Shown one piece after another: positions 6,350-12,046 of a stretch of 64,000 nt of DNA. The stretch is from NCBI GenBank assembly GCA_030390025.1, contig CM059431.1, forward strand, positions 94,676,001 through 94,740,000. Direction: 5' to 3'. Made by a program: the position numbers and the translations under genes. The stretch comes from Squalus acanthias (lineage: Eukaryota). The notes under the pieces are model-generated. The model did no database searches. It saw only the letters and a list, made by a program, of their open reading frames with translations, and was not told the DNA's origin. Numbering within the stretch: the stretch's first letter is position 1; every line of letters begins with the position of its first letter.

Positions 6350-6906
6350 CCCCCGTGATCACCACCCACACTCCCCCCCCGCAATCACCAACACCCACAT
6401 CTGTGCCCCGATCTCTCTCTGAACCCCTTCAATTACCCACCAAATCACGCTGTATCCAACCCAATCGCCGCCCTCACAATCTCTATCCAACAGTAGGAAC
6501 GTACCTGCTCCTGGGCTGCAACCTCCCTTGCAGCGTTCCCCACCCGACGGAGCAAAGTCTATCAATCAGGCTGGCGTCCAGGCAGTGAACCTGTTAAAAA
6601 AACACACTGCACGGAGTTCGGCCCGACCAGAACTCTTGACCCCCCTTGCAAATCCCGCCCCAGTAAATATCAGGACCGATGATTCTTAGATGGTTTTAAA
6701 ATGAAGATTGAGGAGTTTTATTGAACAGTTAACTTGAATGACACAGAGAGCAGCAATAATATGCAAAGTTAAGCTGGGGAGCAGAGACGTCTCAGCTAAA
6801 TGATTTCCATATAGAGCAGCTGAAACATATCACCAGGTCTCTCCTCACACACAAAGATGGGAATGGATGAGGGGAAGCAGGCAGGGTGTTGTGCTCTTTA
6901 CTTTAA

Positions 6907-7091
6907 CCAAGACCTCTAATCATTCGCTTTACCAGATAAAACTTAACCCAGCATTCGGTTCATCCCGCAGCGCCAGTTCTGCTTACCAAAAGTGGCCCAC
7001 TAGGCACTCTCATTCCACGCCCGGCTCCAAGCCAGCGAGTCGAGCTTCTTACCCATTTAAAGTTTGAGAATAGTTTGAGATCGTTGTGGCC
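6907..7091 (-). pseudogene. 28S rRNA fragment (185 nt), circularly permuted
   Basis: The reverse complement matches conserved eukaryotic LSU sequence (agttttatc.ggtaaagcgaatgattagaggtcttgg; gatctcaa.ctattctcaaactttaaatgggtaagaagc; gggccacttttggtaagcagaactggcgctgcgggatgaaccgaa). The two blocks are in swapped order. Confidence 0.9.
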
Positions 7092-7098
7092 TCACTAT

Positions 7099-10000
7099 GG
7101 TAGCATAGTGGTAATGTCACTGGGTTAGTAATCCAGAAGCCTGGACTAATGATCCAGAGACGTGAGTTCAAATCACCACCACGGCAGCTGGGGAATTTAA
7201 ATTCAGTTAATTAAATAAATCTGGAATAAAAAGCTAGTATCAGTAATGGTAACCATGAAACTATCGGATTGTCGTAAAAACCCATCTGGTTCACTAATGT
7301 CCTTTAGGGAAGGAAATCTACCGACCTTACCTGGTCTGGCCTATATGTGACTCCAGACCCACAGCAATGTGGTTGACTGTTAACTGCCCTCTGAAATGGC
7401 CTAGCAAGCTACTCAGTTGTAACAAATCGCTACGTAACAAAATAATAAGAATGAAACTGGATGGACCACCCGGCATCGACCTTAGCACCGGCTACAAACA
7501 TGGCAACAACACACCCAGCCAAATCAACCCTGCAAAGTCCTCCTCACCAACATCTGGGGACTTGTGCCAAAATTGGGAGAGCTGTCCCACAGACTGGTCA
7601 AGCAACAGCCTAACATAGTCATACTCACAGAATCATACCTTTCAGCTAATGTCCCTTACTCCTCCATCACCATCCCTGGGTATGTCCTGTCCCACCGGCA
7701 GGACAGACCCACCAGGGGTGGTGGCCCAGTGGTATACAGTCGGGAAGGAGTGGCCTTGGGAGTCCTCAACATTGATTCCGGACCCCATGAAGTCTCATGG
7801 CTTCAGGTCAAGCATGGACAAGGAAACCTCCTGCTGATTACCACCTAGCGCCCTCCCTCAGCTGATGAATCAGTACTCCTCCATGTTAAACACCACTTGG
7901 AAGAATCACTGAGAGTAGCAAGGGCACAGAATGTACTCTGGGTGGGGGACTTCAATGTTCATCACCAAGAGTGGCTCGGTAGCACCACTACTGGCCGAGT
8001 CCTGAAGGACATAACTGCTAGTCTGGGCCTGCGACAGGTGGTGCGTGAACTAACAAGAGGGAAAAACCTACTTGACCTCGTCCTCACCAATCTACCTGTC
8101 GCAGATACATCTGTCCATGACAGCATTGGTAGCAGTGACCACCACACAGTCATTGTGGAGACGAAGTCCCGTCTTCACACTGAGAACACCCTCCATCGTG
8201 TTGTGTGGCACTACCAACGTGCTAAATGGGATAGATTCAGAACAGATCTAGCAGCTCAAAACTGGGCATCCCATGAGGTGCTGTGGGACATCAGCAGCAG
8301 CAGAATTGTATTCCTCCACAATCTGTAACCTCATGGCCCAGCATATCCCTCACTCTACCATTACCACCAACCCTGGTTCAACAACGAGTGTAGAAAAGCA
8401 TGCCAGGAACAGCACCAGGCGTACCTAAAAATTAGGTGCCAACCTGGGGAAGTTGCAACACAGGACTACATGCATGCTAAAAAGCGGAAGCAGCATGCTA
8501 TAGACAGGGCTAAGAGATCCCACAATCAACGGATCAGATCAAAGCTCTGCAGTCCTGCCACATCCAGTTGTGAATGGTGGTGAACCATTAAACAACTAAC
8601 GAGAGGAGGAGGCTCCAAGAATATCCCCATCCTCAATGATGGTGGAGCCCAGCACGTGAGTGCAAAAGACAAGGCTGAAGCGTTTGCAGCCAGAAGTGCC
8701 GAGTGGATGATCCATATTGGCCTACTCCCAAGGTTTCAGCCAATTCGATTCACTCCACATGATATCAAGAAAGGGCTGAGCGCACTGGATACAGTAAAGG
8801 CTATGGGCCCCGACAACATCCCGGCTATCGTGCTGAAGACTTGTGCTCCAGAACTAGCCGTGCCTCTAGCCAAGCTGTTCCAGTACAGCTACAACACTGG
8901 CATCGATCCGACAATGTGGAAAACTGCCCAGGTATGTCCTGTCCACAAAAAGCAGGACAAATCCAACCCGGCCAATTACCGCCCCATCAGTCTACTCTCA
9001 ATCATCAGCAAAGTGATGGAAGGCGTCATCGACAGTGCTATCAAGCGGCACCTGCTCACTGATGCCCAGTTTGGGTTCCGCCAGGACCACTCAGCTCCCG
9101 ACCTCATTACAGCCTTGGTCCAAACATGGATAAAGGAGCTGAATTCCAGAGGTGAGGTGAGAGTGACTGCCCTTGACATCAAGGCAGCATTTGACCGAGT
9201 CTGGCATCAAGGAGCCCTAGTAAAACTGAAGTCAATGGGAATCAGGGTGAAAACGCTCCACTGGCTTGAGTCATACCTAGCACAAAGGAAGATGGTTGTG
9301 GTATTTGGAGGTCAATCATCACAGCCCCAGGCCATCACTGCAGGAGTTCCTCAGGGCAGTGTCCTAGGCCCAACCATCTTCAGCTGCTTCATTAATGACC
9401 TTCCCTCCAACATAAGGTCAGAAATGGGGATGTTCGCTGATGACTGCACAGTGTTCAGCGCCATTCGCAACTCCTCAGATAATGAAGCAGTCCATGCCCG
9501 CATGCAACAAGACCTGGACGACGTTCAGGTTTGGGCTGATAAATGGCAGGTAACATTTGCGCCACAGAAGTGCCAGGCAATGACTATCTCCAACAAACGA
9601 GAGTCTAACCACCTCCCCTTGACATTCAATGGCATTACCATCGCCGAATCCCCCACTATCAACATCCTGGGGGTCACCATTAACCAGAAACTTAACTGGA
9701 CCAGCCACATAAATACTGTGGCAACAAGAGCAGGTCAGAGGCTAGGTATTCTGCGGCGAGTGTCTCACCTCCTGACTCCCCAAAGCCTTTCCATCTACAA
9801 GGCACAAGTAAGGAGTGTGATGGAATACTCTCCACTTGCCTGGATGAGTGCAGCTCCAACAACACTCAAGAAGCTCAACACCATCCAGGACAAAGTAGCC
9901 CGCTTGATTGGCACCCCATCCACTACCTTGAACATTCACTCCCTCCATCACCGGCATACCGTGGCTGCAGTGTGTACCATCTACAAGATGCACTGCAGCA

Positions 10001-10334
10001 ACTCGCCAAGGCTTCTTCGGCAGCACCTCCCAAACCTGCGACTTCTTCCACCTAGAAGGACAAAGGCAGCAGGCGTATGAGAACACCACCACCTCCAAGT
10101 TGCCCTCCAAGTCACACACCATCCTGACTTGGAAATATATCGCCGATCCTTTATCATCGCTGGGTCAAAATCCTGGAACTCCCTCCCTAACAGCACTGTG
10201 GGAGTACCATCACCACACGGACTGCAGCGGTTTAAGAAGGCGGCTCACCACCACCTTCTCAAGGGCAACTAGGGATGGGCAATAAATGCTGGCATTGCCA
10301 GCGACGCCCTGATCCCATAAACGAATAAAAAAAA
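7099..10334 (+). mobile_element. Single-ORF LINE (APE endonuclease + RT; CR1/L2/Jockey group, clade not assigned) with tRNA/SINE-like 5' head
   Basis: A box tagcatagtgg (7101) and B box gagttcaaatc (7164). EN motifs TNIWGL, ILTESY, GDFNVH, LDLVLT, SDH; RT motifs [33 protein letters not shown]. 3' tail aagggcaactagggatgggcaataaa...aataaaaaaaa. Contains stops and frameshifts. Confidence 0.9.
8656..10080 (+). pseudogene. LINE reverse transcriptase, longest open segment
   Basis: 474-aa ORF with RT motifs [32 protein letters not shown]. Confidence 0.9.
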
Positions 10335-10909
10335 ACAATAATAAACCCCATTTTGTCATTTACTAGAAGCTGCTACTAGCGTCTCCTCGAGAGGTTTGGG
10401 GGGGATGATAGTTTCCTTCTTATAAGGGATTGAGGAATGTTCCTCCCAGGTACTGTCCCCTTCCTCTTTTCCTCACTTTTTAGGAGGATCTCAATTGATG
10501 CAGCAGAGTGGGAGTTAATAATCTGAGGATTCAACTCACATTTTGCACCTCCTGGGCGCACTGCCAGCCTGTTTGAGACCCATCCTGGGATCACCTCCAC
10601 TCCTTCCAGCCCTGTACTGCTCTGGCTCACCTGAGGAGACAGACCCACTCCGACCAGCGAGCTGCAGCAAGATGACCGTTTGGCACTTGCCATTTGCCGG
10701 CGGCATTTAAATGAGACCCAAAACTGAATTTGACTTGGACTGGCATGCGGAGCTCCTGCATCGCCAACTTTGCACCCATTTTGGGTGGAAATCGAATTCC
10801 TTCCCCTCTGTATTTCACATGGGGTTTCCACCCCTCCTGTTTTGTGCCAAATGGAGTGGGCCATTCTGAAACTTTCAAAATGTAAACCACATGCAAAGGC
10901 CACATGGAT

Positions 10910-12046
10910 GGGGGGCAAGTAAAGTAATGGGTGTCAATTATCCCACTTCCTTCCTGCCGTGTCCCCATATTAACCTGCTTTTTTGAGCAGGCGAGCAGGA
11001 CACCCACAGGAAGGAAGCGGGATCCTGTTTTAATTATGCAGATTGCCTCCAATGATGTCATCAGAACCTGATCTGCAATATTAACCTGAGGCCGTGGGAA
11101 GGGGCAATGTCGTCTTCACGGTCAGGCAAAATCCGCCGGGAGCCAGATCCTGGGTCAGAAGAAGCCCGGCAGTTAAGTTTAAAATTTATTTTTCAGGTTT
11201 TCTTGTTGGGCAGGAGGCGCAGGAGTGCTCCTCTAGGCCTCACAAGGAGGCCTTGGGCGTCCCCTGGATCGCGGCAAGATCCACCCTCCCCAGCCCTGAT
11301 TGCTGACAGACCCCTCCCCGCCCTGTCCCCCCCTCCCCACTCCGCCCCCCCCCACTCCCCACTCCGCCCTGCCCCCCCCTCCCCACTCCGCCCTGCCCCC
11401 CCTCCCCACTCCGCCCCTCCCCACTCCGCCCTGCCCCCCCCTCCCCACTCCGCCCCCCCCACTCCCCACTCCGCCCTGCCCCCCCTCCCCACTCCGCCCC
11501 CCCACACCTCACTCCGCCCTGCCCCCCCCACTCCGCCCCCCCCACTCCCCACTCCGCCCTGCCCCCCCCCACTCCGCCCCCCCCCCACTCCCCACTCCGC
11601 CCCTCCCCACTCCGCCCTGCCCCCCCACTCCCCACTCCGCCCTGCACCTCCCCACTCCGCCCCCACCCCCCCCCCCACTCCGCACCCCCCCCCCCACTCC
11701 GCACCCCCCCCCCCCCCCGCCCACTCCCCACTCCGATTATGGAAAGACTTCCCACCCCCGGCCCTGATTGAAGCCTGTTCACAGCCAGCCCTCCCCTCCC
11801 CTCCCGATTGCGGCTTCGAGTCCCGAATTGCCGAGGACTGCTGCGGCCTCCTGCCGCTTGCTTGCGCTCCCGCCTGCCAGTTGGCTGTCAATCTGGCCGA
11901 CTGTCGGGCGGGAGACTGTATCATGTTAATTAAATGAGGACCTGCCGTTGAGATCAGCAGGGCTTCCTCGTCCCTGTCCTTGCCGGGTTCTTTGGCCAAT
12001 TACAGCCTCCCCCACGCACTCCCACCTCCTCGCAAATATCGGGGCC
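10910..12046 (+). mobile_element. MITE-like non-autonomous element with internal C-rich minisatellite
   Basis: Hairpin core at 11201-11246 shared with 161-209 and 59750-59801; right end aaatatcggggcc. Left boundary approximate. Confidence 0.45.
11310..11735. repeat. C-rich minisatellite (ccccactccgccc variants)
   Basis: Visible tandem copies; the minus strand is G-run rich. Confidence 0.9.

What the first reader, a model, noticed from the sequence alone, without database searches (positions are those of the whole stretch)
6907..7091. Exactly circularly permuted 28S rRNA fragment: footprint of an integrated circle
Seen, compared with the conserved LSU sequence from memory: the native antisense order is ttaaccc...gagatcgtttcggcc|ccaagacctctaatcattcgctttacc.gataaaact. 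Here the last block (ccaag...aaaact, 6907-6943) comes first and joins taaccc... (6944-7091) through a 2-nt ct microhomology. The outer ends ggcc and ccaag abut with no gap or overlap in native 28S. Inference: a ~185-nt circle (rDNA-derived microDNA/eccDNA, or cDNA of a circularised rRNA fragment) was opened at a new point and integrated. It sits 7 bp from the 5' end of a LINE but in the opposite orientation, so it may have been captured during repair of that insertion.
Basis: partly seen in the sequence, partly recalled or inferred. Interest (0 to 1): 0.72.

Follow-up and report, generated by a model that had tools for sequence, protein, structure and literature searches.

The report
Circularly permuted 28S piece beside LINE
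A 185-base piece of large-subunit ribosomal RNA sequence, rearranged exactly as if copied once around a closed loop, sits 5 bases in front of a nearly complete LINE retrotransposon and was most likely picked up while that LINE was inserting.

Summary
Against the species' own rDNA, window 6907-6943 matches 28S 37 of 37 and 6944-7091 matches 142 of 148. The two blocks are in swapped order, share a 2-nt CT at the inner joint, and have outer ends that abut exactly in native 28S. The joint is unique in the 3.7-Gb assembly. Three of the six differences are at CpG sites, so this is an old genomic resident, not a chimeric read.

The piece is antisense to a LINE (endonuclease plus reverse transcriptase) that lacks only about 4 nt of the family's 5' end. 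Five filler bases (TCACT) separate the two. Their divergences are similar: 3.2% against 1.7-3.5%. No target-site duplication is detectable for either configuration.

Best reading (0.45): a 28S/LINE chimeric insertion of the twin-priming type, in which the reverse transcriptase made exactly one lap on a closed 28S fragment. The main rival (0.30) is capture of an rDNA microcircle by end joining.

Read-level checks were not possible. This is a new variant of known kinds, seen at a single locus, of moderate interest.

The parts
6907..6943 (-). 28S rRNA block B (native L002 1467-1503, Rfam LSU model about 997-1033); comes first on the + strand although it is the later block in native antisense order
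   Evidence: 37/37 identity to the species' rDNA, E 9e-16; structure context
6942..6943 (.). CT shared by both blocks: 2-nt microhomology at the closing joint (sense AG)
   Evidence: The two HSPs overlap by query positions 63-64
6944..7091 (-). 28S rRNA block A (native L002 1504-1651, Rfam LSU model about 1034-1183)
   Evidence: 142/148 identity; 6 private substitutions, 3 of them at CpG; Rfam RF02543 hit
7092..7096 (.). 5-nt filler TCACT between the rRNA piece and the LINE. It matches neither the LINE family 5' end nor, convincingly, 28S (TCA against CCA).
   Evidence: Alignment of 29 other LINE 5' ends
7097..10335 (+). Near-full-length, decayed LINE with a tRNA-like 5' leader, an APE-type endonuclease, a reverse transcriptase and an A-run tail. 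It lacks about 4 nt (GGGA) of the family's usual 5' end.
   Evidence: Family 5' ends map to window 7096-7113 and 3' ends to 10333-10345. 21 of 29 copies start GGAAYGGTAG. Pfam Exo_endo_phos_2 1.3e-11 and RVT_1 3.4e-39. ORFs are broken by stops.

Best explanation
This is a chimeric LINE insertion. While the LINE was integrating by target-primed reverse transcription, the free 3' end of the upstream (top-strand) target DNA primed a second reverse transcription on a bystander 28S rRNA fragment, as in twin priming. The enzyme started inside the fragment at native 1503 and ran to its 5' end at about 1467. It continued at about 1653 across a 2-nt match. That could be because the fragment was a covalent circle, or because the enzyme jumped from the 5' end to the dangling 3' end of the same linear molecule. 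It then stopped at 1504, where it met the start of its own cDNA:RNA duplex, giving exactly one lap. This cDNA was joined, with 5 filler bases, to the 3' end of the nearly full-length first-strand LINE cDNA. Shown here: the permutation, its exactness, the orientation, the adjacency and the similar age. Inferred: co-insertion, the RNA template and the order of steps.
For: (1) Exact AB->BA order with abutting outer ends and a 2-nt joint. (2) The piece lies 5 nt from a LINE 5' end that is complete to within about 4 nt. The joint is unique in 3.7 Gb and the flanks 6687-6906 and 10336-10700 are single-copy, so chance adjacency is unlikely. (3) The orientation fits. The + strand reads upstream flank, then the cDNA strand of 28S, then sense LINE. 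That is what top-strand priming on abundant sense rRNA predicts. A simple first-strand template switch would give sense rRNA. (4) The filler lies at the joint where two cDNA 3' ends would meet, and none lies at the flank/CCAAG joint where priming would start. (5) Ages agree: the piece is 6/185 = 3.2% diverged, and the LINE private branch is about 1.7-3.5%. The six differences are private to this copy and the source state is canonical rDNA. (6) Published precedent in mammals (passages read, PMC13174262): 18 28S rRNA/LINE-1 chimeras, and antisense 5S, tRNA and U5 chimeras ascribed to twin priming. (7) Dong et al. 2016 (whole text read, PMC4897178) describe non-colinear pseudogenes made from circular RNAs. 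They also name open-ended RNAs with close ends as an alternative source.
Against: No target-site duplication encloses the piece plus the LINE. The best shared word is 6 nt, reached by 592 of 2000 shuffles, so a single event is not proven. An exact one-lap stop requires that this reverse transcriptase did not displace its own product, which is untested. There is no microhomology between the upstream flank end (TTTAA) and the template at the start point. In humans 83% of 28S/LINE-1 chimeras are sense, so the antisense type is the minority. No circular or discrete 1467-1653 rRNA fragment has been shown to exist. In the native fold the two ends are not paired with each other. 40 other loci of this LINE family showed no RNA-gene hit at all. 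A 2-nt joint is also what a microhomology-joined DNA circle would show.
Confidence: 0.45

Rival explanations
1. A double-stranded rDNA microcircle (microDNA/eccDNA of 185 bp) was closed by 2-nt microhomology-mediated joining. It was then broken at one point and ligated by end joining between the upstream target end and the LINE 5' end, or into a break there.
For: Exact unit length with abutting ends follows directly from opening a circle. There is a 2-nt joint. AB->BA order is used as the eccDNA footprint in human polymorphic insertions, with 82 cases reported (bioRxiv 10.64898/2026.09.03.749254, passages read). 185 bp lies just under the ~200-400 bp quoted for microDNAs in a review (PMC8040306, passages read). 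rDNA is multicopy, GC-rich and heavily transcribed.
Against: The piece sits at a LINE 5' joint, where a reverse transcriptase and RNA templates are at hand. In the human set, 80 of 82 such insertions came from the same chromosome, 78 of 80 from within 10 Mb, and 79 of 80 kept the source's orientation. Here the canonical rDNA copies lie on other contigs (C1087, C38, C2671). The only 28S-like copies on C7 are more than 54 Mb away and only 83-88% identical. Capture with no loss of bases at either end needs luck. The model predicts neither the orientation nor which joint carries the filler.
Confidence: 0.3
2. No closed molecule was involved. Either two independent template switches on separate 28S molecules produced the order, or two separate insertions did, and the outer ends abut by coincidence. 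Alternatively the LINE simply landed next to an older rearranged rRNA pseudogene.
For: No TSD ties the parts together. LINE reverse transcriptases are known to jump between templates (recalled; template switching is also discussed in PMC13174262). 28S-derived fragments are scattered through this genome.
Against: Exact abutment by chance is about 1 in 185 per position, a few percent even allowing +/-2 nt (inference). Only this locus has the swapped order among the 53 matches and the 41. A 5-nt distance from a complete LINE 5' end is also unlikely by chance.
Confidence: 0.12
3. The first-strand LINE cDNA reached the RNA's 5' end, added a few bases and switched to an antisense-polarity template. 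That template could be an antisense rDNA transcript, a single-stranded DNA circle or a 28S cDNA. One lap was copied.
For: The LINE is complete to within about 4 nt, and 5 extra bases lie at that joint, which is the classical setting for an end-to-end template jump.
Against: It needs a rare antisense template instead of the very abundant sense rRNA. A circle offers no 3' end to jump to. It still needs the one-lap stop.
Confidence: 0.08
4. Assembly or read chimera.
Against: The piece carries 6 private substitutions against the rDNA, half of them at CpG, with CpG count falling from 12 to 9. A fresh chimera would be identical to the rDNA. It lies inside a chromosome-scale contig between single-copy flanks. 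Five DNA runs from two studies hold 0.60 of the sampled words of 6700-7300. They may include the assembly's own sample, so this is weak support.
Confidence: 0.03

Closest known systems
[quoted passage not shown]
   Same: An rRNA-derived segment abuts the 5' end of a LINE. The segment size of 185 nt lies within their 50-482 nt range. Antisense orientation is the signature they assign to twin priming.
   Different: Their 28S segments are colinear and 83% are sense, the partner is mammalian L1, and many have TSDs. Here the segment is circularly permuted to exactly one unit, the LINE is a different single-ORF endonuclease/RT element in a non-mammalian 3.7-Gb genome, and no TSD is seen.
circRNA-derived pseudogenes (Dong et al. 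2016, Cell Research, PMC4897178; whole text read)
   Same: A non-colinear joint in a retro-copy is read as the footprint of reverse transcription around a closed RNA. There is no poly(A) on the piece.
   Different: Those derive from back-spliced mRNA exons with a known circRNA joint, are of variable length, and are not tied to a LINE 5' end. Here the source is rRNA, the joint is not at any known processing site, and the copy is exactly one lap.
eccDNA-mediated AB->BA germline insertions (bioRxiv 10.64898/2026.09.03.749254; passages read) and the cattle colour-sidedness translocation via a circle (cited there as ref. 11)
   Same: [quoted passage not shown]
   Different: Those are mostly intrachromosomal, lie within 10 Mb, keep the source's orientation, come from unique sources and range up to kilobases or ~500 kb. 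Here the source is multicopy rDNA on other contigs and the piece sits at a retrotransposon joint.
microDNA (as summarised in review PMC8040306; passages read)
   Same: A small circle size class, and an origin from GC-rich transcribed DNA.
   Different: In that review microDNAs are described as free circles, not in connection with reinsertion (passages read only). 185 bp is just below the quoted 200-400 bp.

Membership tests
RNA/LINE chimeric insertion (5' chimera) | A segment derived from a cellular RNA directly abuts the LINE 5' joint | tested here: met
   The 28S piece ends at 7091 and the LINE begins at 7097
RNA/LINE chimeric insertion (5' chimera) | Single event: one TSD (and an endonuclease site) encloses both parts | tested here: inconclusive
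   No TSD for LINE+piece or for the LINE alone. By my reading of the 13 family copies with both joints, TSDs range from none to about 17 nt, so absence does not decide.
RNA/LINE chimeric insertion (5' chimera) | Both parts are of the same age | tested here: met
   3.2% against 1.7-3.5%. This is consistent with one event but not a proof.
Twin-priming product | The upstream segment is antisense to the LINE, so that the top strand reads as cDNA of the second template | tested here: met
   The 28S match is on the minus strand and the LINE is on the plus strand
Twin-priming product | The second reverse transcription is primed from the top-strand nick | not testable with these tools
   Needs an empty site or an in vitro reaction
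circRNA-derived retro-copy | A non-colinear joint in the copy | tested here: met
circRNA-derived retro-copy | The same joint exists in a circular RNA of the organism | not testable with these tools
eccDNA/microDNA-mediated insertion | Cyclic shift of source order with about full coverage and no overlap | tested here: met
   185 of 185 nt covered, 0 (at most 3) nt overlap
eccDNA/microDNA-mediated insertion | The source is nearby on the same chromosome and in the same orientation (an empirical trait of the human set, not a definition) | tested here: not met
   Canonical rDNA lies on other contigs. The C7 copies are more than 54 Mb away and 83-88% identical.
eccDNA/microDNA-mediated insertion | A matching DNA circle exists | not testable with these tools
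   Needs Circle-seq

The most novel reading that the evidence does not exclude
A vertebrate germline held a covalently circular 185-nt fragment of 28S rRNA. A non-L1 LINE reverse transcriptase, primed from the upstream target end, copied it exactly once around and stopped at its own start. This would be the first genomic footprint of a circular rRNA fragment in a eukaryote, and it would show that LINE machinery can retro-copy small non-coding RNA circles with one-lap precision.
Probability: 0.18. Interest if true: 0.65.

Novelty: new variant of a known kind. Interest (0 to 1): 0.45.

Why it matters
RNA/LINE chimeras and cyclically shifted insertions are both used to infer how retrotransposition intermediates and circular nucleic acids reshape germline genomes. 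A piece that is exactly one lap long and sits at a LINE 5' joint links the two. It suggests that part of the AB->BA insertions now credited to eccDNA could instead be reverse-transcribed from closed or self-re-entered RNAs. It also gives a concrete, testable prediction about strand displacement by LINE reverse transcriptases. As a single decayed locus it has no evident function for the organism.

Tried and rejected
Neither long-read support nor circular RNA reads could be examined.

(2) m1A idea. From memory I suspected that the paired GA->AC change at L002 1508-1509 marked the conserved m1A of 28S. The papers place that base in helix 25.1, with structural effects described on domain I and around ES7b/ES7c. 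The fragment is Rfam LSU model 997-1183. I could not obtain the sequence context of the m1A from the texts, and by my own estimate of rRNA numbering it lies some hundreds of nt upstream. The idea was dropped.

(3) TSD search. Nothing above chance.

(4) Paralogous empty site. The flanks are single-copy apart from an old repeat at 6560-6686, so none exists.

(5) Hot spot of 28S ends. Other 28S-derived loci end near L002 1458-1485 (L016, L019, L020, L028). L019 proved to be a plain insertion of a different LINE into a 28S pseudogene. L016 is a LINE inside a pre-existing rDNA-like unit. The cluster is post hoc and is not used as evidence.

(6) Fold of the native 187-nt fragment. The ends do not pair with each other.

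(7) Rfam scan of 40 other loci of this LINE family. 0 hits.

(8) Earlier findings of this scan. Nothing by place, words or sequence.

(9) A satellite with a 185-bp unit. Excluded by the uniqueness of the joint.

Full report
WHAT IS THERE

The window is a stretch of a 3.7-Gb eukaryotic assembly (contig C7). Rfam finds one family above threshold in the whole 64 kb: eukaryotic LSU rRNA on the minus strand at 6956-7001. A more permissive scan extends this to model positions up to 1170.

I compared window 6880-7110 with the species' own rDNA, found in the same assembly (locus L002, + strand = 28S sense). There are two minus-strand HSPs:
- Window 6942-7094 matches L002 1653->1501 (146/153, E 1e-68).
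- Window 6907-6943 matches L002 1503->1467 (37/37, E 9e-16).

On the + strand the native antisense order would be block A then block B. The window has B then A. The blocks share CT at 6942-6943. The outer ends, GGCC at 7091 and CCAAG at 6907, are neighbours in native 28S (1504 and 1503). The last three bases of the long HSP (TCA against native CCA) are a BLAST extension, so I count the unit as 185 nt and allow that an overlap of up to 3 nt cannot be excluded.

In every rDNA copy listed the two blocks lie in native adjoining order. Among the 53 matches and the 41, only the window has them swapped. The 21-nt word across the joint occurs once in the genome.

IT IS OLD GENOMIC DNA, NOT AN ARTEFACT

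Block A differs from the rDNA at 6 of 148 positions and block B at 0 of 37. Three of the six changes hit CpG, and CpG count has fallen from 12 to 9. None of the 29 other 28S-like loci fetched carries this set of states, and the canonical copies all carry the ancestral ones. A chimeric read or misassembly built from rDNA would be identical to rDNA.

Direct read support could not be obtained. Five DNA runs of the same organism from two studies hold 0.60 of the sampled words of 6700-7300. That is weak support, because they may include the assembly's own sample.

THE NEIGHBOUR

From 7097 to about 10335 on the + strand lies a LINE. Pfam finds an endonuclease (Exo_endo_phos_2, 1.3e-11) and a reverse transcriptase (RVT_1, 3.4e-39). 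The frames are broken by stops.

The family is large. The first look gave 7323 candidates for the 5' part and 2538 for the 3' part, with 40 scored each. Other copies begin at window-equivalent 7096-7113 and end at 10333-10345. In 21 of the 29 other 5' ends examined the element starts GGAAYGGTAG, usually preceded by one or two more G. The window copy starts ATGGTAG at 7097, so it lacks only about four bases. The five bases TCACT (7092-7096) belong to neither partner. The rRNA piece is antisense to the LINE.

WERE THEY INSERTED TOGETHER?

For:
- The joint is unique in the genome.
- The flanks 6687-6906 and 10336-10700 are single-copy.
- The piece is 5 nt from an almost complete LINE 5' end.
- The divergences agree: 3.2% for the piece, and a private branch of about 1.7% (3' part) to 3.5% (5' part) for the LINE, estimated from pairwise distances to 29 copies each.

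Not decisive: no target-site duplication is detectable for the LINE alone or for the LINE plus the piece. The best shared word is TTTACT, reached by 592 of 2000 shuffles. My own reading by eye of the 13 family copies that have both joints in view suggests TSDs ranging from none (copies inside known repeats) to about 17 nt. Absence therefore says little. No paralogous empty site exists.

HOW IT MOST LIKELY AROSE

Exact abutment of the outer ends is the key fact. Two independent breaks or template switches would meet exactly only about once in 185 tries. A molecule or template that closes on itself gives it for free. Three closed forms are possible:
- (a) a covalent RNA circle;
- (b) a linear 28S fragment on which the reverse transcriptase, primed internally, runs off the 5' end, jumps to the dangling 3' end of the same molecule, and is stopped by its own cDNA:RNA duplex;
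- (c) a double-stranded DNA microcircle that is opened and ligated in.

Forms (a) and (b) fit the setting. On the + strand one reads upstream flank, then the cDNA strand of 28S, then filler, then sense LINE. That is what priming from the top-strand target end on sense rRNA predicts. It is the scheme called twin priming, which a 2026 survey of human LINE-1 chimeras invokes for antisense 5S, tRNA and U5 partners. The same survey reports 18 28S rRNA/LINE-1 chimeras of 50-482 nt, 83% of them sense (PMC13174262, passages read). Under this scheme the filler lies where two cDNA 3' ends meet, and the filler-free joint is where priming began. Both are as observed. The 2-nt joint is typical of an end-to-end template jump and mildly favours (b) over ligation of an RNA circle.

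Dong et al. 2016 (whole text read) established non-colinear pseudogenes from circular RNAs. They explicitly noted open-ended RNAs with close ends as an alternative.

Weak points of the RNA route:
- It assumes that the enzyme did not displace its own product.
- No microhomology is seen at the start point.
- No such rRNA fragment or circle has been demonstrated.
- The two ends are not paired in the native fold.

Form (c) explains the exact lap and the 2-nt joint equally well. AB->BA order is now used as an eccDNA footprint in human polymorphic insertions, with 82 cases (bioRxiv 10.64898/2026.09.03.749254, passages read). Those cases are almost all intrachromosomal, within 10 Mb, and in the source's orientation. 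Here the canonical rDNA lies on other contigs. The DNA route also predicts nothing about orientation or filler placement, and it needs loss-free ends. At 185 bp the piece is just under the ~200-400 bp given for microDNAs in a review (PMC8040306).

My weights:
- RNA-templated one-lap route: 0.45
- DNA circle: 0.30
- Coincidence or successive events: 0.12
- First-strand jump to an antisense template: 0.08
- Artefact: 0.03

COMPARISON AND NOVELTY

The parts are known kinds: rRNA/LINE chimeras, twin priming, and cyclically shifted insertions from circular RNA or DNA. In what I read of the four papers above (one in full, three as passages) I found no rRNA piece permuted to exactly one unit at a LINE 5' joint. 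This rests on searches and on partial reading, so it is not a claim of absence from the literature. I rate it a new variant of a known kind. It is a neat mechanistic clue, but a single decayed locus whose origin cannot be settled from sequence alone.

LEADS THAT DID NOT HOLD

- The m1A explanation for two adjacent substitutions was dropped.
- An apparent cluster of 28S ends near native 1458-1485 dissolved on inspection into ordinary LINE insertions in rDNA-like sequence.
- Rfam scans of 40 other loci of the LINE family found nothing.
- The scan's earlier notes held nothing relevant.

Noticed in passing
window 7094-7186 and all full-length copies (L032-L060): The LINE family's 5' leader begins with a tRNA-like sequence. 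ARAGORN calls tRNA-Thr(agt) at 7094-7186, while Rfam tRNA scores only 17.2 bits, below threshold. The leader runs on into the endonuclease/RT frame in the other copies. So this is a LINE with a tRNA-derived head, not a SINE lying next to a LINE.
   Followed up: partly
L011-L017 (G000 C26, about 15.3-16.7 Mb): Repeated rDNA-like units in which 18S sequence (Rfam SSU) runs directly into the interior of 28S at about L002 1232, without ITS or 5.8S. They are 96-98% identical to the canonical 28S.
   Followed up: partly
L016 (C26:16326386-16326852 region) and L020 (C30:6160523-6160995 region): 5'-truncated copies of the same LINE family are joined to antisense 28S-like sequence at native positions about 1485 and 1477, through short shared words (my reading of the sequences). 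L016 lies inside a pre-existing rDNA-like unit.
   Followed up: partly
L019 (C15:3276101-3278549): A 28S pseudogene is interrupted at about native 1456-1458 by roughly 1.8 kb holding the RT of a different LINE, antisense to the 28S.
   Followed up: partly
L048 (C7:124809977-124810527): Two copies of the LINE family lie head to head about 10 nt apart, one from position 3 and the other from position 35. This could be two insertions or one inverted-priming event.
   Followed up: no
native 28S position L002 1585 (window 7010): The same C>A transversion at a CpG is present in three independent 28S-derived fragments (the window, L022, L027) out of 13 covering the site. It may be an rDNA variant, a recurrent change or chance.
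   Followed up: no
window 11200-11900: A GC-rich stretch that is open in several frames on both strands and encodes proline- or glycine-rich repeats. It is probably a tandem or low-complexity repeat.
   Followed up: no
window 6560-6686: An old interspersed repeat, 72-88% identical to many loci, upstream of the single-copy flank.
   Followed up: no
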